A model generated the notes under the pieces. That model had not been told where the DNA came from. It saw only the letters and a list, made by a program, of their open reading frames with translations, and did not search any database. Made by a program: the position numbers and the translations under genes. Shown piece after piece: positions 12,321 to 51,548 of a DNA stretch of 64,000 nucleotides (positions are counted from its first letter, which is position 1; each line of letters begins with the position of its first letter). Source of the DNA: a virus (lineage: Duplodnaviria; Heunggongvirae; Uroviricota; Caudoviricetes); the IMG/VR virus record IMGVR_UViG_3300028888_000058, positions 39,060 through 103,059 of that record; one strand, 5' to 3'.

Positions 12321-12917
12321 ATGGAATCACTTAAAGACGTAAAAATACCAAAGAATCTTTTAGAAAGTTTAGCACAAGATGTATTAACTGATGAAAGGGG
12401 ACGTAAATATACTAAAGAAAGTATATTAAAAGGAATTATTAACTCATCAATATGGGGTAATAATGGTGATATTAATAGAAGCGGTGATACTGGTGGATTT
12501 GGTGCTAGTGTATCATTAGATCCAACGTTATTCAAAAGAAACCCAAAGGGGTGGGATATCAAAAAAGCTTGTGAATGGTTACAAGGTAATGCTCATGCAT
12601 ATTCAATACACAGATGCGCAAAATATGTTAGGATGGCTATTGAAGCTGGTGGTGTAAGCACTGATGGCCGTCCTTTATGGGCATGGCAATATATAAATTT
12701 CTTACCTAAGATTGGCTTTAAACATATAGGAACATATACGCAAAATGGATATACGCCAGAACCAGGCGATATTGCTGTATACTTAAAAGGAAATGATAAA
12801 AACGTACCAGGACATATATGCATGTGGACTGGCAAACAATGGTGTTCAGATTTTAGACAAAATAATATGATTGTTTATAAAAATACAAAAGAAGCATATA
12901 TATTTAGATTTCAATAA
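12321..12917 (+). CDS. CHAP-domain peptidoglycan peptidase/amidase
   Basis: Cys in HRCAKYV and His in GHICMW with CHAP-like spacing. PGDIAVY motif. Confidence 0.6.
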   Translation: MESLKDVKIPKNLLESLAQDVLTDERGRKYTKESILKGIINSSIWGNNGDINRSGDTGGFGASVSLDPTLFKRNPKGWDIKKACEWLQGNAHAYSIHRCAKYVRMAIEAGGVSTDGRPLWAWQYINFLPKIGFKHIGTYTQNGYTPEPGDIAVYLKGNDKNVPGHICMWTGKQWCSDFRQNNMIVYKNTKEAYIFRFQ

Positions 12918-14554
12918 TGACAGAATTTAATTCATCATGTCTCGGTGCATGTACACCTCCTCAGATATTAACATTAACATATGCAGTAAATGATATATCA
13001 AATATTACTGTATATGGAGGCTGTGATGCATATGATATGAAATCTTTAGAATGGAGTTATAGTGTAGATAATTTGTGCTGGTCATGTTTTATGTCATATG
13101 ACGAAATATTAGCAAATATTGTAGATCTTAATTCTGATTTTTATATAAGAGTAAAAATAAATGGTGTTATATGTAAAGTACAAATTGATGGAACTGATAC
13201 TTCAGATTATTCAACAGCTTTAGTACCAGGGTTTAATTTTAATAATGAGACATCATCAAATACATATAATCCTTATGCTAATATGGAAGGTGCTTTGGCT
13301 CTCCAGCAAAATTTAGCAGATACAGTTACAGAAATAGTTGGCATACCTATATATTATTTTAAGTTAAGCCCTAATGCAGGTTCTAAAGATATAACATTTA
13401 AAGAATATGCATTAATGGATGTTGAAGCAGTTAAGCAAATTAAAATGGTTATACAAGATGGCACGATGCCTTCATCAAAACCTGAATTTGCTGAATGGGG
13501 ATTAGAATTCCAAAATGATTGGGAACCTGAAATTTCAAAATCTTCATTTGCTACAGCATTTGGCAATACTGCTCAACCAATGGAAGGCGATCTCATTTAT
13601 GTTCCAATGATGAAACGTATGTGGATGGTCAATGGAGCATATGAAGAAAAGAATGGCAATTTAATGTGGCAAGCAACTACATTTAAAGTACAGCTTTCTA
13701 AATATCAAGAAAAAGGTTCAGTTGATTTGGGTGATACTGAAACATTGGTTAATTCATTCGTTAAGAATAAATATGAAGATCTGTTTGGCGAAGACAATAA
13801 CGGAACATTATCAGCTAATGAACCAACATTAGAATCACCAAGATATGCCGCAAATAATCTTTACAGTGTATTTGAATCAGATGCGGTTCGTAAATATATA
13901 ACATGTGATACTGTTGATATTATACCAAATAATATTTACTATAGAGGAACATTAATATCTGATTCAAAATATAATTTTACATTGAATACTGTAGAATCAA
14001 AAATTATATATCAAAAACAATTCTGTGGAGAAGAATATTCAATATCATTTATTGTTAATCCTGGAATTATTGATGATTTTAAAGGAAAACTTATATCATT
14101 AGGAAGTATATCTATAAATGTTGAACAGAATTTAGAACATACATTATTATACTTAAATGTAAATAAAGATGTACAAATTAAATTGGTTAATAATGAAATA
14201 TATTTATGTGTATTAAGAATAAGTAAATGTATGAATCTTGTAGATTTTATGGCATATCATTATACATATAATGATGCTATACCATTATATAAGTTACAGA
14301 ATAATCATTATTACTTCAATATGGATAATCCTGATGGAAAATATGTTGGTAAGTATGATATTGAATTTGCATTAACTGAAAAGTCAGATGTAATTTTATA
14401 TAACTATTATGGAACAATAACAAACTTTAAGTTGTTTGACGTATATAATGATCAATTAAGAGATATGCTTCAAATGTATCCAAATAATCAGCATTTATTG
14501 ATTAATGATACAGCAAGAAAATTGGTTGGACTTCCTGGTGGAGCATTTAAATAA
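12917..14554 (+). CDS. Hypothetical protein (545 aa); possibly structural
   Basis: ATGA-coupled to the CHAP gene. Confidence 0.45.
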   Translation: MTEFNSSCLGACTPPQILTLTYAVNDISNITVYGGCDAYDMKSLEWSYSVDNLCWSCFMSYDEILANIVDLNSDFYIRVKINGVICKVQIDGTDTSDYSTALVPGFNFNNETSSNTYNPYANMEGALALQQNLADTVTEIVGIPIYYFKLSPNAGSKDITFKEYALMDVEAVKQIKMVIQDGTMPSSKPEFAEWGLEFQNDWEPEISKSSFATAFGNTAQPMEGDLIYVPMMKRMWMVNGAYEEKNGNLMWQATTFKVQLSKYQEKGSVDLGDTETLVNSFVKNKYEDLFGEDNNGTLSANEPTLESPRYAANNLYSVFESDAVRKYITCDTVDIIPNNIYYRGTLISDSKYNFTLNTVESKIIYQKQFCGEEYSISFIVNPGIIDDFKGKLISLGSISINVEQNLEHTLLYLNVNKDVQIKLVNNEIYLCVLRISKCMNLVDFMAYHYTYNDAIPLYKLQNNHYYFNMDNPDGKYVGKYDIEFALTEKSDVILYNYYGTITNFKLFDVYNDQLRDMLQMYPNNQHLLINDTARKLVGLPGGAFK

Positions 14555-14624
14555 TTATTATTAAATAAGGGAAAACCGTTATGTGAATAACATTATTTTA
14601 TATCATTTTTATTTTATTTGTCAA

Positions 14625-14668
14625 TAGCATATACTCGAGCGAGAGATATGCTATTGTTTTTTGCTTAA
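14625..14668 (+). terminator. Rho-independent terminator
   Basis: 11-bp stem caatagcatat/atatgctattg followed by ttttttgc. Confidence 0.5.
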
Positions 14669-14729
14669 TTTTGAATATTCTTTAAATTTTTCTATATTAT
14701 TTATATATATTATATAAAAAATAAAAATA

Positions 14730-15083
14730 ATGAAAAAGTATTTTGTATTAGTTTTAATTTCTGTAATGTTATTAACTTCATGTAATCTTTTTGATCAAAA
14801 ACCAGATTACATATTAAAAGAAAATGCTGAATATTACTGGAAAGTACGGTTTAATCCATTTGATAAAGATTCAGTAATTTTAAAATTTCATAAACCAGTT
14901 GAATACATTACAACTGTTAAACAAAAGGGTGGAAAACGAAGAGTTTATTACAATGATTATAATGACCGTTATGTTGCTCAGAGACGCTGTCCTTGGTATC
15001 ATAATGTACATATTGGTGATAAAGTTAAGTTACGTCATAATTTTGAATGTGGTTATGATACATTTGTTGAAGTCGTAAAATAA
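14730..15083 (+). CDS. Lipoprotein
   Basis: Signal peptide plus lipobox LLTSC. Confidence 0.5.
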   Translation: MKKYFVLVLISVMLLTSCNLFDQKPDYILKENAEYYWKVRFNPFDKDSVILKFHKPVEYITTVKQKGGKRRVYYNDYNDRYVAQRRCPWYHNVHIGDKVKLRHNFECGYDTFVEVVK

Positions 15084-15089
15084 GTAGTT

Positions 15090-15584
15090 ATGAGTGGATA
15101 TAATACAATAGAAGAATATAATGAAGCTTTCAGAAAACAATTAAAAGAGACCTGGGAAGCTGAAGTTAAACATTGTCAAAATTGGCTTGATGGTCATTGT
15201 AATTATTCTAAAGTAGGATGGCTTGATACATGTGAAGATGAAAAATATGTAAAAGATAGATTAGTATATTCTCAAAAAATGTTGGATAATATTGATTATT
15301 ATGTTCAGAGGCATTCTTATAGTTACAAGAAGCCACAAACTCAAAAGGATAATGATATGAGTTTTGCTGGTGAAGGACAACATTGGGCATATAGTTCAAA
15401 AATTAGAGTTCCAAGTCTTAAACGTAAATCTGCATGGAAAAGATTTTATAAGATGTTTCCTGATTTGCAAGGAATGAAAACTATTACGGGTAAGTCTTCA
15501 TGTTATGTACAAAATGTAAATGGAGAATATCGCCAGACAATACAAAATTCAAGTACAATTAAATTAAAGAAAATTAAGAAATGA
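15090..15584 (+). CDS. Hypothetical protein
   Basis: ORF only. Confidence 0.4.
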   Translation: MSGYNTIEEYNEAFRKQLKETWEAEVKHCQNWLDGHCNYSKVGWLDTCEDEKYVKDRLVYSQKMLDNIDYYVQRHSYSYKKPQTQKDNDMSFAGEGQHWAYSSKIRVPSLKRKSAWKRFYKMFPDLQGMKTITGKSSCYVQNVNGEYRQTIQNSSTIKLKKIKK

Positions 15585-15817
15585 GGGATTTGAATTTTAG
15601 ACGTAAATCTGAGAAGCTTCATTTAAAACGTCGTAAGATATTAGTCAATACTGTTAAAGATTGGAAACTTAATGATGAACAAGTTAAAGTAACAATGGAA
15701 GATCCTATTAGTTGGTGGGCTAATGAATTTTGGGCAATAAATCAAAAGAAAAGAAATTCACGTAAGATTAGACATCATAATAAAATTAATTTGAAAAAAG
15801 ATTTATATGAGGAGTAG
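15581..15817 (+). CDS. Small highly basic protein; candidate nucleic-acid binder
   Basis: RRKSEKLHLKRRK. TAG stop. Paralogous N-terminus with the next ORF. Confidence 0.4.
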   Translation: MRDLNFRRKSEKLHLKRRKILVNTVKDWKLNDEQVKVTMEDPISWWANEFWAINQKKRNSRKIRHHNKINLKKDLYEE

Positions 15818-16181
15818 AGATTACCGTCGTAAACAAGAGGTAAAACATTTTAAGAAGCGTTTAGATACAGCAGTTTCTATTGGTAGATTTTCAAGTGAGG
15901 AAACAGGTCATAGACCAATGTATGCAGGTAAATATAGAATGTGGAGGATTAAATCTGCAACACCATTAACTTCTGTTGAAAAGGAAATCATGGAGAAACA
16001 ACAATATAAACGTTGGAAGTTTCAGTTAAAGAATGATTCACTTGGTGGAACAATTGATTCATGGGCAAAAAGATGCTGTCGAAGAAATAGACGTCATTAT
16101 CAAAAAATGGTTGATTATAGACTTCCTGATAAAAAATGGTTGGTTCGTGCTCAAGTAATTTATCCAAGAGATATAGTATAG
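15807..16181 (+). CDS. Small highly basic protein, paralog of the previous ORF
   Basis: MRSRDYRRKQEVKHFKKR. TAG stop. Confidence 0.4.
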   Translation: MRSRDYRRKQEVKHFKKRLDTAVSIGRFSSEETGHRPMYAGKYRMWRIKSATPLTSVEKEIMEKQQYKRWKFQLKNDSLGGTIDSWAKRCCRRNRRHYQKMVDYRLPDKKWLVRAQVIYPRDIV

Positions 16182-16184
16182 AAG

Positions 16185-16225
16185 TATAAGTGATTTATGC
16201 TTCTATTTTTTAGTTTATTTAAGTT
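16185..16225 (+). terminator. Putative terminator
   Basis: Stem gaagtat/atgcttc (one G-U pair) followed by attttttag. Confidence 0.4.
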
Positions 16226-16435
16226 ATATTCATATATATTAATTTTATTTTTATATATTAAAGATTGTAAAAATATCTCTTATTGCCTATGGATAATTAT
16301 AGAGGTGTTAAAGCATCAGAGTTAATAAAACAATTAAAAACATATATGAATAAATTTGGAGATTTATATATATGTAAAGAAAAAGGAGGAAATATATTTC
16401 CAATATATTTTATAAATCATTATCCAAACACAGAT

Positions 16436-16516
16436 TATTTTGAATTGACATAATTTATTCAAAACATATAATTTTGAATTGACATAATTTATTCAAAACA
16501 TATAATTTTGAATTAA
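16436..16516. repeat. Tandem direct repeat, about 2.3 copies of a 34-35-bp unit (ttttgaattgacataatttattcaaaacatataa)
   Basis: Read directly. Each unit carries TAATTTTG (TAnnTTTG-like). Sits immediately upstream of the first gene of the CTS array. Confidence 0.7.
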
Positions 16517-16530
16517 CATAAATTAAAAAT

Positions 16531-16983
16531 ATGAAGAATATTAATAAGTACATAACAGAAAAATACAATACAGATAGTATTGAAGAATATTTGGAATCAA
16601 TTGTAAATTCTGCTAAAGGCAAGCCAGATATTTATGATGACACTGAATCTTGGGAAGCACGAGATGAATTTGATTATTGGCAAGATACATCTGGGCAATG
16701 GGATGATATTTTAGAATTTATAGATAAATATGCCTCTAATAAATGTGTAGCTGGATGGAAGAGTAAAGATTCATTTGAAAGCGTTGAAAAACTAGTTCCT
16801 AATATAGTCCGTAATATTATAAAGAAAAAACCAACAGAAATCCCATATAAGAAAAATTCAAATAAAATGGAAATGTGGGAAACTAAACAAGATGATTTTG
16901 ATATTAAAGTGTTAAAGTTCGGAAACTATGTTAATGATAATGGTACCGATTATAAAGAATATTGGTATATGATTGCTATTTAA
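16531..16983 (+). CDS. CTS-tagged hypothetical protein (MKNINKYITE)
   Basis: The N-terminal decapeptide fits the shared motif. Confidence 0.5.
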   Translation: MKNINKYITEKYNTDSIEEYLESIVNSAKGKPDIYDDTESWEARDEFDYWQDTSGQWDDILEFIDKYASNKCVAGWKSKDSFESVEKLVPNIVRNIIKKKPTEIPYKKNSNKMEMWETKQDDFDIKVLKFGNYVNDNGTDYKEYWYMIAI

Positions 16984-17009
16984 AAATAATAAAGATAACT
17001 ATGAAATCT

Positions 17010-17510
17010 CTTAAAGAACATATTATTGAAGAAGGAATTAAAGATAAAATCAAATCTTTTATCAATAAATTCAAAAAGGAAAAAATTCCAGAGAAGGTTT
17101 ATTCTTCTGATGATTTAGAAAAATATAAAGGTCAAATAATAACACCAAAAGATGCTGATGATATTATTGATATATTAATACATACTGATGATTATTTTAA
17201 AGAGTTTTTAATAAGCAAATATGAACCTAAACGTGAGCATATAAAACAAGAAGCATGTAAAAATGCCATATTAGATTATGCTTATGAAAATAATCAAGAT
17301 AGAATTAAGTATGATAAATATGGAGAAAGACATGCAAATCAAGCTGAATATGAATGTTGTAAACAACATGGTATAGATTCTTCATCAATTGCTGCTGGTG
17401 ATTTAATTCTTGCAATGATAAGACCTTATATTATGGGTTGGAGCTTTGCTGATAAAATGAAATTTAAAGCAGAAGAAAAATATAAGCCAACATATAAGAA
17501 AAATCAATGA
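17010..17510 (+). CDS. CTS-tagged hypothetical protein (MKSLKEHIIE). The track start at 16962 is upstream; the motif ATG lies at 17010.
   Basis: Shared motif. The upstream aagataactATG leader is identical to that at 2663-2674. Confidence 0.5.
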   Translation, partial: LKEHIIEEGIKDKIKSFINKFKKEKIPEKVYSSDDLEKYKGQIITPKDADDIIDILIHTDDYFKEFLISKYEPKREHIKQEACKNAILDYAYENNQDRIKYDKYGERHANQAEYECCKQHGIDSSSIAAGDLILAMIRPYIMGWSFADKMKFKAEEKYKPTYKKNQ

Positions 17511-18166
17511 AATCAATAAAAAACTATATTAATGAATCATTATCAAATGAAATACTTGATTTAAGAAAAAAATTAAGTAAATTAGATAAGTCTAAAATTT
17601 TTAATGGATTATATAATTTAGATGATTCTTTAGATAAAGAATTTTATAATATATTAATTTCATTAAATAAGTCAAATGCATCTAATAGTACTTTAATTAG
17701 TACATGGAAAATGTTGTTTTCAAAATTAATTATAGAACCATTAGTTGGAGAATTAATTGGAGATAATAAATGTGAATATTCTTCAATAAATATTGATAGA
17801 ACAGAGAAATGGGATATTAAATATAATAAGAATATATTAATAGATGTAAAAGCAACTTACAATAATCATACAGGTAATTTTAGTTTTTCTAAAAAAGATG
17901 CAGACTATATAATAAATTACAATAAGCAAGATATCAATAAAAGATATGTATTATTTGTATATCCTGAAATTAAGACTTGGGAAGATACAATAAAAATATA
18001 TAAAAATAAATCTATGGTTGATATGAAATTAATCAGTTATATAGATTTTAAAGAAATATTAAATAATAATGATTTTGAAGAAAAGAAATCAAATATATTA
18101 ATACCTAATTCTTTTATTGAAAAAAATGATAAATTTAGAAAATTTAATAAAAACATAAAGAAATGA
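17507..18166 (+). CDS. CTS-tagged hypothetical protein (MKSIKNYINE)
   Basis: Shared motif. ATGA-coupled. Confidence 0.5.
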   Translation: MKSIKNYINESLSNEILDLRKKLSKLDKSKIFNGLYNLDDSLDKEFYNILISLNKSNASNSTLISTWKMLFSKLIIEPLVGELIGDNKCEYSSINIDRTEKWDIKYNKNILIDVKATYNNHTGNFSFSKKDADYIINYNKQDINKRYVLFVYPEIKTWEDTIKIYKNKSMVDMKLISYIDFKEILNNNDFEEKKSNILIPNSFIEKNDKFRKFNKNIKK

Positions 18167-18351
18167 AATCTTTAAGACAGTATTTGACTGAAGAACTACA
18201 TGATGTAATAGTTAAAGTTGGAGATTATTGGAGAATAAAAGGTCATGCAGGAAAAGGAACAAATACTCCTAAACGTGGATATTGGAAAGCTAAATATAAA
18301 ACAAAGAAAAAAGCAGAAAACGCATTAAAAGCGTATTTTGCAAACAATTAA
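18163..18351 (+). CDS. CTS-tagged small basic protein (MKSLRQYLTE)
   Basis: Shared motif. ATGA-coupled. Confidence 0.5.
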   Translation: MKSLRQYLTEELHDVIVKVGDYWRIKGHAGKGTNTPKRGYWKAKYKTKKKAENALKAYFANN

Positions 18352-18373
18352 ATATATAAATCATTTATAAATT

Positions 18374-19033
18374 ATGAAAGATATTAAATTATTTATTTTA
18401 GAATCATTAAATAATAAACTATTAACTGCTGTTAAAAATCTTAATTATGATTTTTCAGAAACTGCATCTTTATCAAATAATACTAAAGAGAATAGAGCTA
18501 AAAAAACAAAAGCTCAAGCAAAAATATTTATAGATTTATTTAATGAATTAACAGATAAAGATACTCATTTTGATTATAAAGCAATTAGCTGTGAAGATTA
18601 TTGTAAATTAATTAATAAAACATATTCATTTATTGAAGATAGTAAAATAGGAGATATTATTATAATGAATGATAAAACTCCTGAAATGTTTATTGATTTA
18701 AAAGTAGCAGAAACTAATAAATATATTGGAACACCTGATATGTTGTCATTAGTTAATTTTGCTTCTGAACGCGACGATAAAAAATATTATTTATGTTCAT
18801 CATTAGATGGTACACAGACAAAATTAATATTAGCTAATGAAATATACAATATAATAATTTCTAAAAAAGGAAATGTTGTTGTTTCAAAAGATAGAAATTA
18901 TATTTCTAAAGAAGTTGAAGCATTTAAAGATAAAGTAAAATTAGTTGCTCCTAAAAACATGGAAAACGCAGATTTATCAAAACTATATGATGAAGATTTT
19001 GTTGCAACATCTGTAATAACAAATATAAAATAA
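18374..19033 (+). CDS. CTS-tagged hypothetical protein (MKDIKLFILE), bracketed by direct repeats
   Basis: Shared motif. About 45-bp direct repeats at 18300-18345 and 19036-19085. Confidence 0.5.
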   Translation: MKDIKLFILESLNNKLLTAVKNLNYDFSETASLSNNTKENRAKKTKAQAKIFIDLFNELTDKDTHFDYKAISCEDYCKLINKTYSFIEDSKIGDIIIMNDKTPEMFIDLKVAETNKYIGTPDMLSLVNFASERDDKKYYLCSSLDGTQTKLILANEIYNIIISKKGNVVVSKDRNYISKEVEAFKDKVKLVAPKNMENADLSKLYDEDFVATSVITNIK

Positions 19034-19035
19034 TA

Positions 19036-19085
19036 TGAAACAAAAGAAAAGCAGAAAACGCATTAAAAGCGTATTTTGCAAATAA
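19036..19085. repeat. Direct repeat duplicating the 3' end of gene 18163..18351 (aaaagcagaaaacgcattaaaagcgtattttgcaaa)
   Basis: Near-identical to 18300-18345. Confidence 0.6.
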
Positions 19086-19101
19086 ATAATATAATTTAAA
19101 T

Positions 19102-19548
19102 ATGAAGGCATTTAAAGATTATATTTTAGAAAATAAAGTTACAGAATTTAATTATGCTTCTGAAGGAGATCATGATTTTATTGATTAGGTAATTGAATTA
19201 TTGGAATCTAATGGATTTAATAAAAGTGAAAAAAAGATATTAAAATCAAAAGAATATAAGATAACAAATAATGGTTATGAATTATTTGCACGTTCTGAAC
19301 AGAATAAAACTATTAAGAATACTAAATTAGTATGTATTCGTAAAGGAGATAATAATAAATATGACTATTATTATAGATCTTCAAATGATTCATTTTGGAG
19401 ATATAATTTTTCTAAAAATCAACAAATAGTTCGATTTAGAGATTATCAGCATGCTAATACTGGTATTTATGATGTAAAAGATTCTAAATGGCACGATAGA
19501 ATATTGCAATCAATAAGAGGAATATTTAATATTAAAAAGGATAAATAA
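19102..19548 (+). pseudogene. CTS-tagged gene (MKAFKDYILE) interrupted by an in-frame TAG at about 19186-19188. The downstream body (track ORF 19201..19548) is in the same frame.
   Basis: Translating from the ATG at 19102 gives 28 codons, then TAG, then a 120-codon open frame in phase. Confidence 0.45.
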
Positions 19549-20192
19549 TGAAATCAATAACTAATTATATATTTGAAAAGATAAAGGATCTTCCTGATTC
19601 TATTAAAGGATTAATTGTATTTGATATTGATGATACAATATTAAAAGTTGATCCTAATATGATGTCTATTTATAAAAAGGAACCAGGAAAATCTGAAATC
19701 AAATTAACTACTGATGAATTTGCAAAAGATCCTGATGCAGAAGACCAAAGCAAGAGAGATTGGTTTGATTATAGAGATTTTAAAGATCCTGTAAAAGTAT
19801 ATAATTCTATCATATCTGGTACTCCATTGATTAAGAATCTTAAAATAATGGATGATTATGTTAATGCTGGATATGATTTTTGTTTTTTAACTGCACGTTC
19901 ATGTGAAGATACAGTTAAGAAAGCATTATCAGACTTCTTATTAGTTCGTGATGAAAATGGACTTTTAAAAGAATTAGGAGATTCATTTAAAAAGATTATG
20001 TCACATGCAGTTAATGATGAATATAAGAAATACCCTGGTAAGACAGATGCTGAAAAGAAAGCAAACATATTAATTAAGCTTTGTAAAAAATATGATAAAG
20101 TGGTATTTGTAGATGATGATAGAAAAAACGTAAATGCTGCTCGTGAATTGAATATAAAAAATTTAAAAGTAATTAAGGCTTGGGATGAATAA
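19548..20192 (+). CDS. HAD-superfamily phosphatase (Pnk phosphatase-like) with a CTS tag (MKSITNYIFE)
   Basis: Motif I FDIDDTIL (DxDxT), motif II LTARS, motif IV FVDDD. Confidence 0.6.
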   Translation: MKSITNYIFEKIKDLPDSIKGLIVFDIDDTILKVDPNMMSIYKKEPGKSEIKLTTDEFAKDPDAEDQSKRDWFDYRDFKDPVKVYNSIISGTPLIKNLKIMDDYVNAGYDFCFLTARSCEDTVKKALSDFLLVRDENGLLKELGDSFKKIMSHAVNDEYKKYPGKTDAEKKANILIKLCKKYDKVVFVDDDRKNVNAARELNIKNLKVIKAWDE

Positions 20193-20266
20193 AATGAATA
20201 ATAATAAATAATATGAAATCATTAAAAGAATATATTAAAATAAACAATAAAAATATTTTATAAATT

Positions 20267-20758
20267 ATGTTTAATAAAATTAGAGAAAAAATTGGTAAGT
20301 TTATATTACCAAACACTGTAAGAGTAGTTGATGCTACAGATATGACTGTTGATGAATTGATGAATAATCATGTTCAAAAATTAGAACAATTACCTGAAGT
20401 ATTCACTAAAGATTTTCTTGAAGACTTGATTAAAGAATATCCTAAGTTTGATCACCCAAATATTGTAGAATCTGATGGTAAAATAAAATTTACTGATGCT
20501 AATGGAAAGACAGCACAGCTTAAAGTTCCTCTTTTGACTATTGTTCCAATACCTTATATCTCTAAAGATGAAGTAGATTTGGATCAATACATTAAAGATA
20601 ATTTTGGAGATGTTAAATACCCTAAGAGTATGGAAGACATAAAGGGAGTTAAAGTAGAAGTTCCTGCATTGAATATTGTGCCAATACCTGATATAAGTAA
20701 AGATATAGATATTTCTTTTGATAAAGAAGCTAAGAAATCTAAAGAAAATAAAAAATAA
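20267..20758 (+). CDS. Hypothetical protein preceded by an orphan CTS start module (20213-20263, MKSLKEYIKINNKNIL, then in-frame TAA)
   Basis: The motif-bearing 16-codon mini-ORF is in the same frame as the body, separated by TAA ATT. Confidence 0.45.
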   Translation: MFNKIREKIGKFILPNTVRVVDATDMTVDELMNNHVQKLEQLPEVFTKDFLEDLIKEYPKFDHPNIVESDGKIKFTDANGKTAQLKVPLLTIVPIPYISKDEVDLDQYIKDNFGDVKYPKSMEDIKGVKVEVPALNIVPIPDISKDIDISFDKEAKKSKENKK

Positions 20759-20795
20759 TCAAATAATATAATTTCAAATAATATAATTTAAGTTA

Positions 20796-20836
20796 ACCAA
20801 TTAATAAGTATTGGTTAACTTTTTTATTTTTATATA
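20796..20836 (+). terminator. Rho-independent terminator
   Basis: 10-bp stem gttaaccaat/attggttaac followed by ttttttatttt. Confidence 0.5.
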
Positions 20837-20867
20837 TAATAAAATGATAAAAAGATTTTTATAAATA

Positions 20868-22115
20868 ATGAAACATCTACGAGATTATATATTTGAAACA
20901 TCAATTAATGGATTAAAATATTTAATTATGGATTTTGAATCTTCTGAAGATGAAACATTAATGAGTGGCTCACAATTTTATGATGTGTCTAAAAAATTAC
21001 AAAAAACTATTTCAAAAGAAGATTTAAAAAAAATATTTCAATATGCAAAAGATCATAAAAATTTAAAAGAAATTAAAGCTAGACCAGAACCTTTAGTGGC
21101 TAATTATGGTAATAAACATTTAGATTTTGCATTTAGGCGTTGGGTAAAAGATGCTATATTAGATTTAAATATTATAATTCATGGATCAAAAAATATATAT
21201 CATAATACTAATTTAAAAGGTAATGGTGAATGGGTTCCTACAGCTCAAGATATGGAAGATGTTATATCAATAGGATATAATAATGTTAATAAAATTAATA
21301 AAATATCTGAATCAAAAGATGATAAAATTGAACAAATTATAAAATATTACCAAGATAATAAAGATATAATCGATATTATTGTTAAAAAAATAAAATCAGG
21401 AAATTCACCATTAGGAAAACTTCCAACTAAAGGTATTATTGCTTCAGAAAAATGGAAAACTTTAGGAAAGTTTGAAAATATTAAAAATATAAATAATACT
21501 CCTAAAACAGATATCATATCTGCAGATCATAAATTAAAAATTTCATTAAAAGAAGAAGGTGGATCACAACTTATGTCAGGAGGATATCACGAAGCTTTAG
21601 CAACAATATTATGTGCAATTGAAAAATCAAAGTGTTTAGAAGAAGCAAAAGAATTAATTGCATCATTAGATATTAAATGGTTAACAGGATTTAAAGATAT
21701 CGATGGAATTGCAAAAATAAAAAGAAATCCAAATCATAAAGATTATGAATTAATAAAAAATGCTGAAACAAATGGCAATAAAGTTCAAGAATTACTAAAT
21801 AATCTTATAAAGAATAATTCTAAATTTGAATATGAATTATTATATGAAGCAATGACAGGATTAATTAAATTTGGAGAAAGTAATCCTGCATCTGCTAATT
21901 ATATATTGGTTTGGAATGATAAAACACCAGAATCATCTAAATTTTATACTCCAGAAGAATATATTAAACATTTAAAAGAATCAAAAATTCAATATTTAAT
22001 AAATTTTAAATCTGCAAATAATAATTCTTGGCAAAATATGCGTATAATTTGTGGTAACGCAAAATCAACAGATTCAGAAAAAACAGAAATTAAACCAATA
22101 AATAAAAATGAATGA
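20868..22115 (+). CDS. CTS-tagged hypothetical protein (MKHLRDYIFE), 415 aa
   Basis: Shared motif. Overlaps the next gene by 8 nt. Confidence 0.5.
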   Translation: MKHLRDYIFETSINGLKYLIMDFESSEDETLMSGSQFYDVSKKLQKTISKEDLKKIFQYAKDHKNLKEIKARPEPLVANYGNKHLDFAFRRWVKDAILDLNIIIHGSKNIYHNTNLKGNGEWVPTAQDMEDVISIGYNNVNKINKISESKDDKIEQIIKYYQDNKDIIDIIVKKIKSGNSPLGKLPTKGIIASEKWKTLGKFENIKNINNTPKTDIISADHKLKISLKEEGGSQLMSGGYHEALATILCAIEKSKCLEEAKELIASLDIKWLTGFKDIDGIAKIKRNPNHKDYELIKNAETNGNKVQELLNNLIKNNSKFEYELLYEAMTGLIKFGESNPASANYILVWNDKTPESSKFYTPEEYIKHLKESKIQYLINFKSANNNSWQNMRIICGNAKSTDSEKTEIKPINKNE

Positions 22116-23133
22116 AAATTTAAAAGAGGTACGTATATGTCTTGGCAGGTTTCAGCCATTCACATTAGGTCATCTTAAAATGGCTACTTATAAAGATCTT
22201 AAAGGTCCAGATAAAGAACAACAAGATAAGTTAAGAGAACAACCTAATTTAGAAGATATATCTAAACAGAAGACAATCATATTAGCAATATCTACACCAG
22301 ATGATAAAGTAGATACAAGACACCCTTTTAATGATGACTTAATGAAAAAAGAATTTGAATTAGTTAAGAAAAATTATAAGGATGATATCGAAGATGTATT
22401 ATATGTTTCTTCAGCAGATATATGTGCATGGGGTGAATTAATTAAGAAATCTGGATATAAAGCTTCAGTATGGTTGACTGGTTCTGATGAATTTAGTTTC
22501 TATAAAGGAATGGCTATTAAAGTTCCAGAATATGAAGAACATAATAAAAATAATAAAGATTGCAAAGATGCATATACAAAATCGTTTTATGTTGAAGAAA
22601 TTGAAAGAACTGAAGATAAAGATTTTGTATCATCAATATCTGGTACAAAAGTTCGTCAGTCATTATTAGATGGTGATAAAGAACTATTTACAAAAATGAT
22701 GCCAAAAGGAGTCGATAGATATTTTGATGAATTTAAAGAAAAAGTTGAAAATGCTCCAGAACCTAAGAAGAAAGAATCTAAAAAATCATTAAAAAACAAA
22801 ATTAAAGAAGATATGAAATCAATTAAAGACTTTATTTTAGAATCAAAACAAAATGAAAATCAAAAAGAATTAAATAATGCTATAGACATTATAAAAACTT
22901 GTTTAGATAAAAAAGGATATAAAGAAGATGAATTTAAGATAACTAAAGTATTTGGAAACGAAATAAGAGTTTATTTTATAAAAGGTTCAAATACTCATCA
23001 TGAAGCAGTTTCTAAAATTGGTAAATATATTGATAATGAATTATATAAAGCTCATAGTAAAGTATCTCATAAGACTATGGGTAAAGGTAAAGAAGGAGAA
23101 TATTATCAAGCATTTACAATTAATATATTTTAA
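22108..23133 (+). CDS. NMN/NaMN-adenylyltransferase-like (cytidylyltransferase fold) protein fused in-frame to a CTS-tagged module that begins at the internal ATG at 22813 (MKSIKDFILESKQN...)
   Basis: GRFQPFTLGHL (HxGH-type motif) and ISGTKVRQSL (SGTxxR motif). The internal 30 nt atgaaatcaattaaagactttattttagaa are identical to the start of the next gene at 23140. Confidence 0.5.
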   Translation: MNENLKEVRICLGRFQPFTLGHLKMATYKDLKGPDKEQQDKLREQPNLEDISKQKTIILAISTPDDKVDTRHPFNDDLMKKEFELVKKNYKDDIEDVLYVSSADICAWGELIKKSGYKASVWLTGSDEFSFYKGMAIKVPEYEEHNKNNKDCKDAYTKSFYVEEIERTEDKDFVSSISGTKVRQSLLDGDKELFTKMMPKGVDRYFDEFKEKVENAPEPKKKESKKSLKNKIKEDMKSIKDFILESKQNENQKELNNAIDIIKTCLDKKGYKEDEFKITKVFGNEIRVYFIKGSNTHHEAVSKIGKYIDNELYKAHSKVSHKTMGKGKEGEYYQAFTINIF

Positions 23134-23139
23134 ATTATT

Positions 23140-23445
23140 ATGAAATCAATTAAAGACTTTATTTTAGAAAGCAAAGCACCAAATAAAATATCTGCATCAG
23201 GTAAGAAAAAATTAACAAAATATATTGATGATCTAATTAAAAATATAGATGATATATATGATTATGCAGGTATTCCTACTGATGATGCTGACCAAGTAGA
23301 TTCTGATTGTAGAGATACAATATGGAATTGGGTTAATGATGAAGGAATATGTAACTGGGATACTGAAGATAAAGAATCAGTTGGATTTATAAATGATGAA
23401 TATAATAGATTATCTAAAGCTATATGTGATAAATATAAATTATAA
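23140..23445 (+). CDS. CTS-tagged hypothetical protein (MKSIKDFILE)
   Basis: Shared motif. Confidence 0.5.
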   Translation: MKSIKDFILESKAPNKISASGKKKLTKYIDDLIKNIDDIYDYAGIPTDDADQVDSDCRDTIWNWVNDEGICNWDTEDKESVGFINDEYNRLSKAICDKYKL

Positions 23446-23447
23446 TT

Positions 23448-24332
23448 ATGAAATCATTTAAAAACTATATATTAGAATCATTAGTTATAGAAGGTGGTAA
23501 TGCAGTTAAAGCAGAACCAATTCCTGCAGTAATAGCGCCTAAGGTTTATGATGAGATTGAAAAGAAAGTTCATTCAATATCAAAGTTTAAAGATATTGAT
23601 ATGGCAGCTTTAGGTAGTATTGGCAAAAAGGCAGATGACCAGACTAATGGAGATATTGATGTTGCAGTTAAAGTCGATACTAAGGATGAACTTAATGAAA
23701 TAGTTGATACTTGCTTTGGCGACTGTGAAATCAATTATAATACAATGAAGACTATTACATCATTTGGATATCCTTATGATATAGATGGTTATAAAGGTAT
23801 TGCACAAGTTGATTTTATGATAGTTAAAAAGATGGACTGGGCTAAAGCATATTATCATTCTCCTAACTTAAAGACTGGTGAATCAAAATACAAAGGTGCT
23901 GTACGAACTGCTGCATTAAGTTGTGTCATATCTTGTTTGCCAGTTCCTGATGTAAAAGATGAATATTTTGAAGATGGTGTTACAGTTAAGAAACATTGGA
24001 AACATACATTCAATACAGAAGGTGTATTCATTCAATTGATTGATTACTGTGGAAAGAATGGTAAGCCTGTTAAGAATGGTAAGAAGATTAAAGAATTTGA
24101 AAAATTAGTCACTAATGATCCAACTAATTTAGTAAGATTCATATTTGGAGATAATGGTACTATAGAAGATATTAATTCAATTGAATCTTTATGGAAAGCT
24201 ATACATGATCCTAAGAAATTCAACTGGGGTGATGAAGTATTAGCCGCTATTGAAAAGAAAATAATTGAAGACCCTGGATTAGAAGGAAAACTTAATAAAG
24301 AAGATTTTCCATGTAAATTTTATAAAGGTTAA
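23448..24332 (+). CDS. Pol-beta-superfamily nucleotidyltransferase with a CTS tag (MKSFKNYILE)
   Basis: LGSIGKKADDQTNGDIDVAV fits the minimal NTase signature [GS]-x(9-13)-DxD. Confidence 0.55.
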   Translation: MKSFKNYILESLVIEGGNAVKAEPIPAVIAPKVYDEIEKKVHSISKFKDIDMAALGSIGKKADDQTNGDIDVAVKVDTKDELNEIVDTCFGDCEINYNTMKTITSFGYPYDIDGYKGIAQVDFMIVKKMDWAKAYYHSPNLKTGESKYKGAVRTAALSCVISCLPVPDVKDEYFEDGVTVKKHWKHTFNTEGVFIQLIDYCGKNGKPVKNGKKIKEFEKLVTNDPTNLVRFIFGDNGTIEDINSIESLWKAIHDPKKFNWGDEVLAAIEKKIIEDPGLEGKLNKEDFPCKFYKG

Positions 24333-24335
24333 ATT

Positions 24336-24947
24336 ATGAAACAAATAAATAATTTTATAAATGAGAAACTTATTATAAATAAGAATATTAAAGTTGATAA
24401 GTATCATTATCATCCTATAGATAATAAAGAATTAAAAGATCTTATTGAAAAATTAATTAAAGAACGTGGAAATGAAGCAAATTTGAATGATATTGATACA
24501 TCACAGATAACAGACATGTCAAATTTATTTGAAGATTCAGATTTTAATGGAGATATATCAAAATGGGATATAAGTAATGTCAAAGATATGTCAGGTATAT
24601 TTCTTAATTCTGATTTTAACGGTGATATATCTGAATGGGATGTAAGTAATGTTAAAAATATGTTATTTATGTTTAATAGTTCTAAATTTGATGGAGATTT
24701 AAGTAAATGGGATGTAAGTAATGTTACAAATATGGCATCAATGTTTGCTGAATCTAAATTTACTGGTAAAAATGGAGATATATCTAATTGGGATGTAAGT
24801 AATGTTGAATTTATGTCATATATGTTTAATGATTCTAAGTTCAGTGGAAACATTTCTAAATGGAATATAAGTCGCGATACAAATATATATAAAATGTTTA
24901 AAGGTTCTCCATTAGAAAAGAATCCACCTAAATGGTACAAGAAATAA
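24336..24947 (+). CDS. DUF285-type (Mycoplasma/Listeria-type) 26-residue-repeat protein with a CTS tag (MKQINNFINE)
   Basis: Five tandem repeats of the form GDISxWDVSNVxNMxxMFxxSxF. Confidence 0.55.
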   Translation: MKQINNFINEKLIINKNIKVDKYHYHPIDNKELKDLIEKLIKERGNEANLNDIDTSQITDMSNLFEDSDFNGDISKWDISNVKDMSGIFLNSDFNGDISEWDVSNVKNMLFMFNSSKFDGDLSKWDVSNVTNMASMFAESKFTGKNGDISNWDVSNVEFMSYMFNDSKFSGNISKWNISRDTNIYKMFKGSPLEKNPPKWYKK

Positions 24948-24980
24948 TAAAAAATATTATAAAGATAATTTGATAATTAA

Positions 24981-26447
24981 ATGGAACATTTAATAGATAG
25001 ATATTTAAAGAAGCCTGAAGTAGTTAAAGATTTATTTACAAAAGAAGTAAGTATATCTTTAAAAGTTGATGGCGCTGCATTTCAGATATCTTATGATAAA
25101 GAAAATGATAATATAACATATCATAAGCGTGGTGGTTCTTCAAAATCATTAGGTCCTATTATTGATGAATATACTCAATTAATGAGAAAGAACATTAATG
25201 ATGCTATTGATTATTTTGAATCTAAAAAGGAAGCTGTTAAGAAGTATAAATTTTATGCTATTGAAATGTTCAACGATTCTTATATTCTTTTGACTGTTAT
25301 AGATAATGATAATAATATAATAGATGATAGAAATAAGTTAGAAGAAATATCAAAATCATTAGGCATAGATTGTGTTCCTATATTATTTGAAGGTAAATTA
25401 AATAAAGAACAGATTGAATCATTAATGTCAATGATGACATTAGAATCAGAAACTTCTAATGATGTATATAAAGAATATCTTACTAATATATTTGGTAAAG
25501 GTGACTATCAGAAATTTTTAGTCGGAGATGAAGTTGAAGGTATTGTATTGACATGGAATATAGATAATGCAATATCGCAGTATAAGATAATTAATCCTGC
25601 ATTTAAGACTCGTCATGATAAAGAAATCAAACAAGGAAATGAAGATTATAAGAAAGAAATAGAAGAATACATTAACTTATATGAATTGATATATGAAACT
25701 ATTAATAAAATTGGCAAACATGAGAATGATAATTGGATTAAGAATTTAGATGCTAATTTTATTAATATGATTAATAATGAAGAATTCAAATCTAAATATG
25801 AAGATATAATAGATACATTACAACCTAAGTTTAAAGATTTCTTTACATTACAGATTAATAAAGCATCTAAAGAAATACAAGATATCATCAAAGAGTATGG
25901 TGACAATATGAAGTTCTTATATGAAAAATATTTACAAGTATTTTTCAAACAAAAGAAACGTAACTATTTTATATCTAAAGAATTCCAATTAAATGTCAAT
26001 AAAGTAATCGAAAGACTTCAAAAAATAAATGAATCTAAACTTTCTCAATATATGAGAAGAAACATTAAATCATTTGGTGAATATTTTATTGATGAAAAAT
26101 TAAAAATTAATAAAGATACAAAAATTAATACAGTAGTATATTCAACAAATACTGGTAAGAAAATAGAAGTCATTAAAAAAGTTGCTGAAGATACTGAATC
26201 ATGGAAAAAATTTGAAAGTTTTGTACTTCAATTACGTCGTTTTAATTTAATGAAATATAGTAGAATACTTGTTTGTAATATTGAAGATGACAAATGGGTA
26301 ACAAATACAAAACAAAGTTATTCAATAAATGATTATCAACCAAATTATAGATATCTTTATTCGAGTCAGAAAAATTATTATACATATAAACAAGTAATTG
26401 AAATGCTTGAAAGCGGCAAACACATAATTATATTAGCAGGTAAATAA
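24981..26447 (+). CDS. ATP-dependent polynucleotide (probably RNA) ligase-like nucleotidyltransferase
   Basis: Motif I SLKVDGAAF (KxDG) and motif IV-like VEGIVLTW. Context includes the Pnk kinase and phosphatase. Confidence 0.45.
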   Translation: MEHLIDRYLKKPEVVKDLFTKEVSISLKVDGAAFQISYDKENDNITYHKRGGSSKSLGPIIDEYTQLMRKNINDAIDYFESKKEAVKKYKFYAIEMFNDSYILLTVIDNDNNIIDDRNKLEEISKSLGIDCVPILFEGKLNKEQIESLMSMMTLESETSNDVYKEYLTNIFGKGDYQKFLVGDEVEGIVLTWNIDNAISQYKIINPAFKTRHDKEIKQGNEDYKKEIEEYINLYELIYETINKIGKHENDNWIKNLDANFINMINNEEFKSKYEDIIDTLQPKFKDFFTLQINKASKEIQDIIKEYGDNMKFLYEKYLQVFFKQKKRNYFISKEFQLNVNKVIERLQKINESKLSQYMRRNIKSFGEYFIDEKLKINKDTKINTVVYSTNTGKKIEVIKKVAEDTESWKKFESFVLQLRRFNLMKYSRILVCNIEDDKWVTNTKQSYSINDYQPNYRYLYSSQKNYYTYKQVIEMLESGKHIIILAGK

Positions 26448-49820: not shown

Positions 49821-51548
49821 ATGACAGATAAACGTTGCTTGATTTATGAGACTCTTGGTAAAGTTTCAGATCTTGAAATCGTTGAAAGTAAAGGTAGCAA
49901 CGGTATGCGTCTTCATGGTGTATTTGGTGTTTGTGGTATAAAGAATCAAAATAATCGTGTTTATGATAAAGAAAATTATAAGCAGATGGTTGAGTCTTTA
50001 CAAAAAGTTATCAAAGAATCAGGTTGTCCTGGTGAATTGGAACACCCAAACTCAATGAATATTAATTTACAAAATGTATCTCACAAGATTGAATCTATTC
50101 AAATGAATGAAGATGGAACCATCACTGGTGATATCTTGCTTTTGAATACTCCAAGTGGAAAAATTGCTCAAGCAATTGTAGAAGGCGGTCTTCCATTGTA
50201 TATATCTTCAAGAGGTGCAGGTACTATCACTAATGAAGGTCGTGTAACGTTATCTACTATTAAGACTTACGATTTGGTCGGTACTCCAGGTTTTAGTCAA
50301 GCCAAACTTACTCTTAAAGAGAATCAAAAACTTGAATGTCTTAATGAAGGTTTAGAAGAAGGTAACAATGAAACTTGGGTAATCGTTGAAGGTTCTGATG
50401 ATCTTTTATCTGATGATGATGATAAGGATAAAGATAAAGAACCTAAAGAAGAACCTAAGGAAGATGATAAACCAAAGGATAAACCTAAGGAAGATGACAA
50501 GGATAAAGATGACTCTAAAGATAAGGATAATGATAAAGAAGATAACAAAAATAATGGCAATGATAATACCGATATGGAAAAACTTAGAGAAGCTGTTGAA
50601 GAGCTTGCTAAAAAAGTAGAATCTCTCCAAGCTGAATTGCATGTTGCAAAAGAAAGTTTAGAAGAGACTAGAGAATCAGTTAAGCCAGTTAATTACGAAG
50701 CTATTGAACAATGGGTAAAGGAAGAATTTGCTCCAGAATTCAAGCAAGAAGTATCTAATGAAATTAACGAAGATATTGATGAAAAGATTGATACTAAAGT
50801 TAATGAATCAATGGAAACTATTGCTACAGGCGTAGAAAATTGGATTAATGAAGAATATAATCCTGAAGTTCAAAAGTGGGTTAATGAAGAATTCGCTCCA
50901 ATGGTACAACAATGGATAGTTGAAGAATTTGCTCCAGAAGTTCAGAACTGGGTAGTTGAAGAATTTGCTCCAGAAGTTCAGAACTGGGTAGTTGAAGAAT
51001 TCTCACCTGAAGTACAAAATTGGATCGTAGAGGAATTCTCACCTGAAATTCAAGGATGGATTACTGAAGAATTTGCTCCAGTAGTAGAAGGATGGATTAC
51101 TGAAGAATTTGCTCCTGAACAATCACAAACTATTGAAAATAAAGTAAATGAGAATGTTTCTGCATTTATGGAATCTCAAAAGGCTGGTCGTTTAGAAGAA
51201 ATTGATAGTTTACTTGAATCAATTGCAAATGACGATAATGCATCAGTTAACAAAATTGTTGAAGAAGAAGGAAAGAACAATAAATATAAAGGAGTTTATG
51301 TTGTAGAAAACATGCCTGCTGAATATCGTCCTTCTTGGGAACTTCTTACAGAAGCTCGTCAACAAGAAATTATTAGAAGTTCTCGTATGTATGACTTCAT
51401 GAAGGAAGGTCAAATTGAGAAGTTCTGGGCTAACGTTGATTTCAATCAACAAAATCCTGTTTATGTAAATGAAGCTAAGGAAAATCCTATGGAAGCTTAT
51501 CAGAATTCAATTGTTGCAAAGATGAAAGCTCTTCGTAGAAATTGCTAA
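49821..51548 (+). CDS. Prohead protease (T4 gp21-like) fused to an acidic, repeat-containing scaffold-like domain
   Basis: PGELEHP matches gp21 GELNHP (catalytic His). YISSRGAGT matches gp21 GVSSRGLGS (catalytic Ser). DLVGTPGFS. C-terminal half contains a K/D/E low-complexity region and 9 tandem 12-aa repeats. Confidence 0.65.
   Translation: MTDKRCLIYETLGKVSDLEIVESKGSNGMRLHGVFGVCGIKNQNNRVYDKENYKQMVESLQKVIKESGCPGELEHPNSMNINLQNVSHKIESIQMNEDGTITGDILLLNTPSGKIAQAIVEGGLPLYISSRGAGTITNEGRVTLSTIKTYDLVGTPGFSQAKLTLKENQKLECLNEGLEEGNNETWVIVEGSDDLLSDDDDKDKDKEPKEEPKEDDKPKDKPKEDDKDKDDSKDKDNDKEDNKNNGNDNTDMEKLREAVEELAKKVESLQAELHVAKESLEETRESVKPVNYEAIEQWVKEEFAPEFKQEVSNEINEDIDEKIDTKVNESMETIATGVENWINEEYNPEVQKWVNEEFAPMVQQWIVEEFAPEVQNWVVEEFAPEVQNWVVEEFSPEVQNWIVEEFSPEIQGWITEEFAPVVEGWITEEFAPEQSQTIENKVNENVSAFMESQKAGRLEEIDSLLESIANDDNASVNKIVEEEGKNNKYKGVYVVENMPAEYRPSWELLTEARQQEIIRSSRMYDFMKEGQIEKFWANVDFNQQNPVYVNEAKENPMEAYQNSIVAKMKALRRNC
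50700..51135 (+). repeat. Nine tandem 36-bp (12-aa) coding repeats (xEEFAPEVQNWV) inside the scaffold domain
   Basis: Read directly from the translation. Confidence 0.6.

What the first reader, a model, noticed from the sequence alone, without database searches (positions are those of the whole stretch)
19102..19548. A CTS-tagged gene interrupted by a single in-frame TAG
MKAFKDYILENKVTEFNYASEGDHDFID is followed by TAG and then 120 further codons in the same frame (the track's 19201 ORF starts at an internal TTG). This is either a recent nonsense pseudogene or a stop that is read through. TAG is rare here, and the two apparent TAG stops at 15815 and 16179 are each followed within 6 codons by another stop. 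That pattern is worth checking for leaky TAG decoding.
Basis: seen in the sequence. Interest (0 to 1): 0.55.

Follow-up and report, generated by a model that had tools for sequence, protein, structure and literature searches.

The report
Single nonsense mutation in phage gene
One small accessory gene of a very large, AT-rich phage carries a premature TAG stop caused by a single G-to-T change; all ten related sequences encode glutamate there, so this is an ordinary recent knock-out (or a base-calling error) and not evidence that the phage reads through TAG.

Summary
ATG 19102 opens a frame that meets TAG at 19186-19188 and then stays open for 119 more codons to TAA 19546-19548.

All ten related sequences found (60-91% identical) are intact, 147-150 aa, and have Glu at that codon. 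The six read as DNA carry GAG (five) or GAA (one). The TAG is therefore one G-to-T change at 19186.

Nothing supports leaky or reassigned TAG:
- This is the only in-frame TAG in about 70 genes, and the capsid, sheath and protease genes have none.
- Coding density barely changes with TAG read as sense (0.879 to 0.891).
- TAG aligns with Glu, not Gln.
- TAG ends genes normally in the window (2/69) and in relatives (50/735).
- No tRNA was found in the window or in about 0.85 Mb of related loci.
- A second stop within 6 codons also follows 47% of TAA stops and 7 of 8 TGA stops.

The gene carries a T4-like capsid-targeting decapeptide, sits in a cassette-shuffling hotspot, and is absent from the closest large relative (a 435-kb contig). 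Best reading: a recent nonsense mutation in a dispensable gene. Neither a read-level error nor a suppressor tRNA elsewhere in the genome could be excluded.

The parts
19102..19548 (+). Interrupted gene. It would encode 148 aa if codon 29 were sense. It is the ortholog of intact 147-150 aa proteins P0001-P0008.
   Evidence: tblastn of relatives' ORFs runs through the stop.
19102..19131 (+). N-terminal decapeptide MKAFKDYILE. It resembles the T4 capsid targeting sequence (CTS), with Glu at position 10.
   Evidence: The motif M-K-x-[ILF]-x-x-[YF]-I-x-E starts 17 of 70 genes, against 0.02 expected. Residues 1-8 are disordered in the model. Distant homologs lack the decapeptide. CTS properties are from PMC9026906.
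19186..19188 (+). Premature TAG at codon 29. The six relatives read as DNA have GAG (L001, L002, L003, L010, L011) or GAA (L006), so this is a G-to-T change at 19186.
   Evidence: Glu is invariant in the 8 close homologs. It lies in helix 25-36 of the predicted core, where block-mean pLDDT is 91-94.
19201..19548 (+). Residual ORF from an internal TTG (115 aa). The public assembly calls this as the gene. It would lack the tag and residues 1-33 of the conserved domain.
19042..19089 (+). Non-coding 48-nt duplicate (92% identical) of the 3' end of the 62-aa gene. It looks like a footprint of cassette insertion directly upstream of the interrupted gene.
   Evidence: In L002 the 62-aa gene directly precedes the intact ortholog.
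18304..18351 (+). Reference copy of the 48-nt repeat, at the 3' end of the intact 62-aa gene 18163-18351.
18374..19033 (+). Extra 219-aa tagged gene lying between the two repeat copies. It is absent from L002 and from the 435-kb relative.
15815..15817 (+). Ordinary TAG stop of gene 15581-15817. The next gene starts at 15807 and overlaps it.
16179..16181 (+). Ordinary TAG stop of gene 15807-16181.
49821..51548 (+). Head maturation protease (context only). It is the presumed enzyme that removes the N-terminal tags.
   Evidence: phrog_207 E = 6e-40. Marginal match to the T4 gp21 structure 5JBL, E = 0.0095. The adjacent major capsid protein is Gp23-type, PF07068 E = 5.5e-29.

Best explanation
A single G-to-T transversion at window position 19186 changed codon 29 (Glu, GAG) of a 148-codon accessory gene into TAG.

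Inferred consequence: translation stops after 28 residues. The protein is lost, leaving only a short tagged peptide.

Inferred role: by analogy with T4 internal proteins, the intact protein would be packed into the capsid through its N-terminal decapeptide tag, trimmed by the head protease, and injected into the host with the DNA.

Shown: the gene is dispensable and sits in a region where tagged gene cassettes are gained, lost and shuffled. The lesion is recent, because the other 119 codons are still open and almost unchanged.
For: - Intact orthologs. Eight protein-cluster representatives (P0001-P0008), 60-90% identical and 147-150 aa, cover 100% of the read-through product. All have Glu at the TAG column, inside the conserved block GDHxFID-E-[VI]IE.
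- Single-base difference. DNA of six relatives reads GAG (five) or GAA (one) where the window reads TAG.
- Few other changes. Against four relatives, the window-specific changes are the nonsense codon, three synonymous changes, one shared S/P polymorphism and K92R. There is no frameshift and no further stop.
- Isolated TAG. It is the only in-frame TAG in about 70 genes, and the only internal stop in a conserved gene among 161 relatives' ORFs mapped to the window.
- Dispensable gene. It is absent from all 35 related IMG/VR loci, including the syntenic region of the 435-kb contig whose helicase is 96% identical. The neighbourhood is rearranged there, and a 48-nt duplication marks a cassette insertion next to the gene.
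- Other decay nearby. Small gene 6929-7189 has a 1-nt deletion plus a TAA in the ancestral frame. A relative shows a TAT/TAG polymorphism that truncates a Macro-domain gene.
- The stop falls inside the core. The TAG lies in the first helix of a confidently predicted core domain (mean pLDDT 79) that is also conserved in distant, untagged homologs. Any product restarted downstream would lack part of that domain.
Against: - No reads were available. The only other sequence with TAG (L009) is 100% identical over 18.7 kb and probably comes from the same population or data. The base itself is therefore not independently verified.
- The rest of the ORF is perfectly intact. That is also what one would see if the stop were suppressed, or were an error.
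- The complete genome was not available, and relatives reach 435 kb. A suppressor tRNA elsewhere cannot be excluded.
- Capsid targeting, protease cleavage and injection are inferred from a motif, not shown.
Confidence: 0.74

Rival explanations
1. The T at 19186 is a sequencing or assembly error, or a minority variant promoted into the consensus. In that case the real phage population carries GAG and the gene is intact.
For: - The difference is a single substitution, and the rest of the ORF is flawless.
- The only supporting sequence (L009) is 100% identical to the window and is not independent.
- From general knowledge, G-to-T is a typical oxidative-damage artefact of short-read libraries.
Against: - The same base appears in the 64-kb window and in a separately deposited 24.8-kb MEGAHIT contig with different ends.
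- From general knowledge, consensus substitution errors are rare in short-read assemblies.
- The window holds another small gene with two nearby lesions, and a relative has a comparable TAG polymorphism. Real nonsense alleles are therefore plausible in this lineage.
Confidence: 0.15
2. TAG is leaky or partly suppressed in this phage-host system. This would be an early stage on the proposed path to TAG reassignment: low GC, then rare TAG stops, then a suppressor tRNA, then tolerated in-frame TAGs. The full-length protein would still be made.
For: - Low GC (about 28%) and rare TAG stops: 2/69 in the window and 6.8% in the family.
- Two TAG/sense single-base polymorphisms were seen in the family.
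- The downstream ORF is intact.
- The evolutionary model comes from 10.1101/2021.08.26.457843. Relatives are jumbo or megaphage-sized, a size class in which TAG recoding is known (PMC6784885, PMC8346664).
Against: - No tRNA in the window or in about 0.85 Mb of related loci.
- Only one in-frame TAG in about 70 genes, and none in late structural genes, where recoding concentrates.
- The coding-density gain of 0.012 is far below the published 5-10% threshold.
- TAG aligns with Glu here and with Tyr in L003/L004, not with Gln.
- The stop is not conserved in any of the ten relatives.
- TAG terminates 50 of 735 genes in the family.
- I looked only for TAG lesions at first. The other lesion found later involves an indel and a TAA, so there is no TAG-specific excess.
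Confidence: 0.05
3. The truncated gene still makes a useful product. Translation restarts at TTG 19201, 13 nt after the stop, and gives an untagged 115-aa protein that acts in the infected cell instead of being packaged.
For: - An in-frame TTG lies close downstream, with an AGG 11 nt upstream of it.
- The public assembly calls this 115-aa ORF as a gene.
- Distant homologs function without the tag.
Against: - The restart product would lack residues 12-33, including the conserved EFxYAxEGDHxFIDE block and half of helix 25-36. These are present even in the untagged distant homologs.
- No relative uses such a start.
- There are no in-frame ATG or GTG codons downstream of the TAG, and only one further TTG, near the 3' end.
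Confidence: 0.05

Closest known systems
Ordinary nonsense (amber) mutation making a young pseudogene in an accessory phage gene
   Same: - One base away from the sense codon found in all relatives.
- The gene is dispensable and patchily distributed.
- The rest of the ORF has not yet decayed.
- Other small genes in the lineage show similar lesions.
   Different: Nothing substantive. Only read-level confirmation is missing.
TAG-to-Gln recoded phages (genetic code 15): Lak megaphages and crAss-like phages (PMC6784885, PMC8346664, PMC9523058, 10.1101/2021.08.26.457843)
   Same: - Low-GC, very large phage from what appear to be animal-gut or rumen metagenomes.
- TAG is the rarest stop.
- There is an in-frame TAG in a gene.
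   Different: - Only one in-frame TAG, and none in structural genes.
- Standard-code coding density is already about 0.88 and does not rise.
- TAG aligns with Glu or Tyr, not Gln.
- TAG is used as a real stop.
- No suppressor tRNA was seen.
T4 internal proteins (IPI, IPII, IPIII, Alt) with the 10-residue capsid targeting sequence cleaved by prohead protease gp21 (PMC3012670, PMC9026906)
   Same: - N-terminal decapeptide with conserved residues at positions 4, 7 and 8, and Glu at 10.
- Otherwise unrelated, fast-evolving small proteins.
- Gp23-type capsid protein and a head maturation protease in the same genome.
   Different: - The scale is much larger: at least 17 tagged genes in 64 kb, and up to 16 of 29 genes in a related locus, against a handful in T4.
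- The protease is 575 aa and only marginally similar to gp21.
- Packaging and cleavage are untested.
- The protein family has no known function.

Membership tests
Stop-codon-recoded phage (code 15, TAG to Gln) | Coding density rises by more than 5-10% when TAG is read as sense (criterion from 10.1101/2021.08.26.457843) | tested here: not met
   The window goes from 0.879 to 0.891. Related loci change by -0.18 to +0.07, and TGA-as-sense gives gains of similar size in the same loci. In the nine loci examined ORF by ORF, the gained ORFs are wrong-frame junk or short tails after real TAG stops.
Stop-codon-recoded phage (code 15, TAG to Gln) | Many in-frame TAGs, concentrated in late structural and lysis genes | tested here: not met
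   One in-frame TAG in about 70 genes. None in the capsid, sheath, tube, protease or 2368-aa genes.
Stop-codon-recoded phage (code 15, TAG to Gln) | In-frame TAG aligns with glutamine in homologs | tested here: not met
   It aligns with invariant Glu in ten relatives. The second TAG polymorphism in the family aligns with Tyr.
Stop-codon-recoded phage (code 15, TAG to Gln) | TAG no longer used as a terminator | tested here: not met
   TAG ends 2 of 69 window genes and 50 of 735 genes in related loci, including genes with recognised domains such as a lysozyme and a Macro domain.
Stop-codon-recoded phage (code 15, TAG to Gln) | Phage-encoded TAG suppressor tRNA | tested here: inconclusive
   No tRNA of any kind in the window or in about 0.85 Mb of related loci. 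However, the full genome was not available, and relatives reach 435 kb.
Programmed translational read-through | The stop codon and its context are conserved among orthologs | tested here: not met
   None of the ten relatives has a stop at this codon.
Young pseudogene by nonsense mutation | Orthologs are intact, with a sense codon one base away from the stop | tested here: met
   GAG or GAA in relatives against TAG in the window.
Young pseudogene by nonsense mutation | The variant is real in the population (read support) | not testable with these tools
   Only an identical public contig was found.
T4-type CTS-tagged internal head protein | N-terminal propeptide of about 10 residues, with targeting residues at positions 4 and 7, processing residues at 8 and 10, and Glu at 10 (PMC9026906) | tested here: met
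   MKAFKDYILE has F4, Y7, I8 and E10. The same pattern starts 17 of 70 genes, against 0.02 expected. The tag is disordered in the model and absent from distant homologs.
T4-type CTS-tagged internal head protein | gp21-type prohead protease and Gp23-type capsid in the same phage | tested here: inconclusive
   The capsid is clearly Gp23-type (PF07068, 5.5e-29). The protease matches phrog_207 'head maturation protease' at 6e-40. Against T4 gp21 (5JBL) the E-value is only 0.0095, and there is no Pfam protease hit.
T4-type CTS-tagged internal head protein | The protein is packaged in the head, cleaved after Glu10 and injected | not testable with these tools
   This needs virion proteomics.

The most novel reading that the evidence does not exclude
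This low-GC jumbo or megaphage lineage may be at an early stage of TAG reassignment. A suppressor tRNA somewhere in the unsampled part of the genome, or in the host, would make TAG leaky. Nonsense TAG alleles in accessory genes would then persist without cost. Candidates are the window's GAG-to-TAG change and the TAT/TAG polymorphism in the L003/L004 Macro-domain gene.
Probability: 0.04. Interest if true: 0.6.

Novelty: already known. Interest (0 to 1): 0.12.

Why it matters
As it stands it matters little. It is a routine annotation point: the gene should be marked as a nonsense pseudogene or checked against reads, and not called as a 115-aa TTG-start protein.

It would matter only if TAG proved to be suppressed. 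Standard-code relatives caught at the moment of acquiring suppression are the missing step in the published model of how phages evolve alternative genetic codes.

The surrounding context is more interesting than the TAG itself. A family of very large phages has the T4-style capsid-targeting tag on a large share of its small genes, and these cassettes are shuffled by recombination. That points to a very large arsenal of injected proteins.

Tried and rejected
- **Close phage genomes.** blastn of 17500-21000 against GenBank phages gave no match.
- **A second lesion just upstream of the gene.** The apparent 1-nt gap and TAA at 19031-19050 are not damage to a live gene. They lie in a non-coding duplicate of the 3' end of the intact 62-aa gene at 18163-18351.
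- **Two separate genes instead of one interrupted gene.** Rejected, because homologs are continuous across the stop.
- **Walking beyond the window ends to scan the rest of the genome for tRNAs.** The end proteins are not on record. A look-up by DNA reference also failed for a protein that L009 demonstrably encodes.
- **Promoter and terminator scan of 18000-19800.** Nothing above shuffled expectation.
- **Allele scan of metagenome and viral collections.** It found only two further relatives, both GAG.

Full report
**The observation**

ATG at 19102 is followed by 28 sense codons (MKAFKDYILENKVTEFNYASEGDHDFID). TAG follows at 19186-19188, then 119 further sense codons in the same frame, ending at TAA 19546-19548. 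The mechanical ORF list shows only the 115-aa piece, which starts at an internal TTG at 19201.

The window is 23-34% GC. Its genes are tightly packed and almost all lie on the + strand up to about 58.8 kb. It encodes a Gp23-type major capsid protein, a head maturation protease, a tail sheath and tube, a helicase and several BspA-type repeat proteins. It is therefore part of a tailed phage genome.

**What relatives show**

A search with the read-through product returned eight protein-cluster representatives. They are 60-90% identical, 147-150 aa long, and all cover 100% of the query. In the alignment, the TAG column is an invariant Glu inside the conserved block GDHxFID-E-[VI]IE.

I fetched the DNA of four of them. 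The codon is GAG in three and GAA in one. Two more relatives came from degenerate pattern scans. One is a 128.7-kb IMG/VR contig and the other a GenBank WGS metagenome contig. Both also read GAG.

The window's TAG therefore differs from the family's codon by one G-to-T change at 19186.

The only other sequence carrying TAG is a 24.8-kb MEGAHIT contig (ENA ERZ27257205). It is 100% identical to window 9201-27910. It shows that the allele is present in a public assembly, where the gene is called as the 115-aa TTG-start fragment. It is not an independent lineage.

**Age of the lesion**

Against four relatives, the window-specific changes in this gene are few:
- the nonsense codon;
- three synonymous substitutions;
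- one Ser/Pro polymorphism shared with other relatives;
- K92R, at an otherwise invariant Lys.

There are no frameshifts and no further stops. If the lesion is real, it is recent.

**Tests of leaky or reassigned TAG**

1. Reading TAG as sense merges or extends no real gene in the window except this one. The only other effects are tails of 4 codons after the two genuine TAG stops, plus wrong-frame junk.
2. Coding density is 0.879 under the standard code and 0.891 with TAG as sense. In about 50 related loci the standard code already gives roughly 0.75-0.95, and TAG-as-sense gives no gain that TGA-as-sense does not also give. The published screen for recoding requires a gain above 5-10%, followed by manual confirmation (10.1101/2021.08.26.457843).
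3. In recoded phages TAG aligns with Gln (same paper; PMC9523058). Here it aligns with Glu.
4. TAG ends genes normally: 2 of 69 in the window and 50 of 735 (6.8%) in 35 related loci. The window's rate is not significantly lower (P = 0.14). The trinucleotide is depleted on both strands (TAG 787, CTA 761, TGA 1645). Rarity as a stop therefore reflects composition, not decoding.
5. The 'second stop within six codons' pattern also holds for 47% of TAA stops and for 7 of 8 TGA stops. It is what an AT-rich sequence gives by chance.
6. ARAGORN finds no tRNA in the window or in about 0.85 Mb of related loci.
7. None of the ten relatives has a stop at this codon, which rules out conserved programmed read-through.

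The one gap is that the complete genome was not available. Relatives include contigs of 435, 410 and 376 kb, so a suppressor tRNA elsewhere cannot be excluded. My generic pattern scan for one was uninformative.

**What the gene is**

The product begins MKAFKDYILE. The pattern M-K-x-[ILF]-x-x-[YF]-I-x-E starts 17 of 70 genes in the window. All 17 lie on the + strand between 2.7 and 34 kb. The rate of the same pattern at internal positions predicts 0.02. The pattern is also common in related loci, up to 16 of 29 genes.

It matches the properties of the T4 capsid targeting sequence. That sequence is a 10-residue propeptide with targeting determinants at positions 4 and 7, processing determinants at 8 and 10, and Glu at position 10. 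It is removed by the prohead protease and sits on otherwise unrelated, fast-evolving internal proteins (PMC3012670, PMC9026906).

A profile search found more distant members of this protein family. Several of them start directly at the conserved EFxY core, without the decapeptide. The tag is therefore a modular add-on.

With the deeper alignment AlphaFold gives a usable model (mean pLDDT 79, pTM 0.77). It has:
- a disordered tag (residues 1-8);
- a helix at 25-36 that contains Glu29;
- a six-stranded sheet;
- a C-terminal helix.

**Dispensability and local dynamics**

The gene family is absent from all 35 related IMG/VR loci, including the syntenic stretch of the 435-kb contig whose helicase is 96% identical to the window's.

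In that contig the segment corresponding to window 16.5-19.5 kb is rearranged. The HAD-phosphatase gene follows directly, and the 17507-18166 gene sits on the other side of it. The 62-aa gene, the 219-aa gene and the interrupted gene are all missing.

In L002 the 62-aa gene directly precedes the intact ortholog. In the window, an extra 219-aa tagged gene lies between them. It is bracketed by a 48-nt direct repeat of the 62-aa gene's 3' end, at 18304-18351 and 19042-19089. This is the footprint of cassette insertion by recombination.

**Is the lesion isolated?**

I mapped 253 ORFs from close relatives onto the window, and 161 of them matched. The only conserved gene with an internal stop is this one.

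One other small gene, 6929-7189, is damaged. Compared with the three relatives aligned as DNA (a fourth shows the same frame split in tblastn), it has a 1-nt deletion and, 21 nt further on, a CAA-to-TAA change in the ancestral frame.

Separately, two near-identical relatives (2 differences in 10,671 nt) differ by TAT against TAG in a Macro-domain gene, which removes its last 12 residues.

Sporadic inactivation of small accessory genes therefore seems to be a normal feature of this lineage. It is not specific to TAG.

**Verdict**

- **Nonsense mutation (about 0.74).** The best-supported explanation is a recent GAG-to-TAG nonsense mutation that knocks out a dispensable, tag-bearing accessory gene.
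- **Assembly error or minority variant (about 0.15).** This cannot be excluded without reads.
- **Suppression or incipient recoding (about 0.05).** Nothing I could test supports it.
- **A functional restart product (about 0.05).** Nothing I could test supports this either.

The finding is ordinary. The context is the more noteworthy thing seen here, although it is not the finding under review: a family of very large phages in which a T4-like capsid-targeting tag marks a large share of small, shuffled genes.

Noticed in passing
window 2672-33982 (+ strand); also L018-L050: At least 17 of 70 window genes start with M-K-x-[ILF]-x-x-[YF]-I-x-E, a T4 CTS-like decapeptide, against 0.02 expected from internal positions. 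In related loci the share reaches 16 of 29 and 14 of 22 genes. That is a far larger set of putatively capsid-packaged proteins than the handful in T4.
   Followed up: partly
window 18304-18351 and 19042-19089, flanking 18374-19033: A 48-nt direct repeat (92% identical) of the 3' end of the 62-aa gene brackets an extra 219-aa tagged gene that is absent from L002 and from the 435-kb relative. This looks like cassette insertion by recombination. Gene order in this stretch differs between close relatives.
   Followed up: partly
window 6929-7189: This small gene matches a 90-aa ORF of four relatives in two reading frames. DNA alignment with three of them shows a 1-nt deletion near 7116 and, 21 nt downstream, a CAA-to-TAA change in the ancestral frame. 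It is a second decayed gene, followed by a clear hairpin plus T-run at about 7190-7212.
   Followed up: partly
L003 18698-18700 vs L004 8916-8918: Two near-identical contigs (2 mismatches in 10,671 nt) differ by TAG against TAT (Tyr) in a Macro-domain gene, cutting off its last 12 residues. This is a second TAG/sense polymorphism in the family.
   Followed up: yes
L012, L014, L018 (IMGVR_UViG_3300021256_000054, 435,272 bp); L023, L031: The window's relatives include contigs of 435, 410 and 376 kb. The 435-kb contig has a helicase 96% identical to the window's, and its matches to the 821-aa protein and the helicase lie about 59 kb apart, as in the window. The window is probably part of a jumbo or megaphage with a T4 Gp23-type capsid protein that uses the standard genetic code. 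Sample names (STEW...) suggest rumen origin, but I did not verify this.
   Followed up: partly
P0011, P0013, P0014, P0016, P0017 (alignment A5): Distant homologs of the interrupted gene lack the N-terminal decapeptide and start directly at the conserved core. The tag therefore appears to have been added to pre-existing protein families.
   Followed up: partly
window 24535-24872 (inside tagged gene 24336-24947): There are 4.6 tandem copies of a 72-nt (24-aa) unit, about 70% matching, that encodes a WDVSNV-type repeat. The same repeat occurs several times in the 435-kb relative, and BspA-type LRR_5 repeats also occur in the large proteins at 44.5-49.7 kb.
   Followed up: no
window 37395-44501: A 2368-aa ORF has no Pfam match at E <= 0.01. 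I did not examine it further.
   Followed up: no
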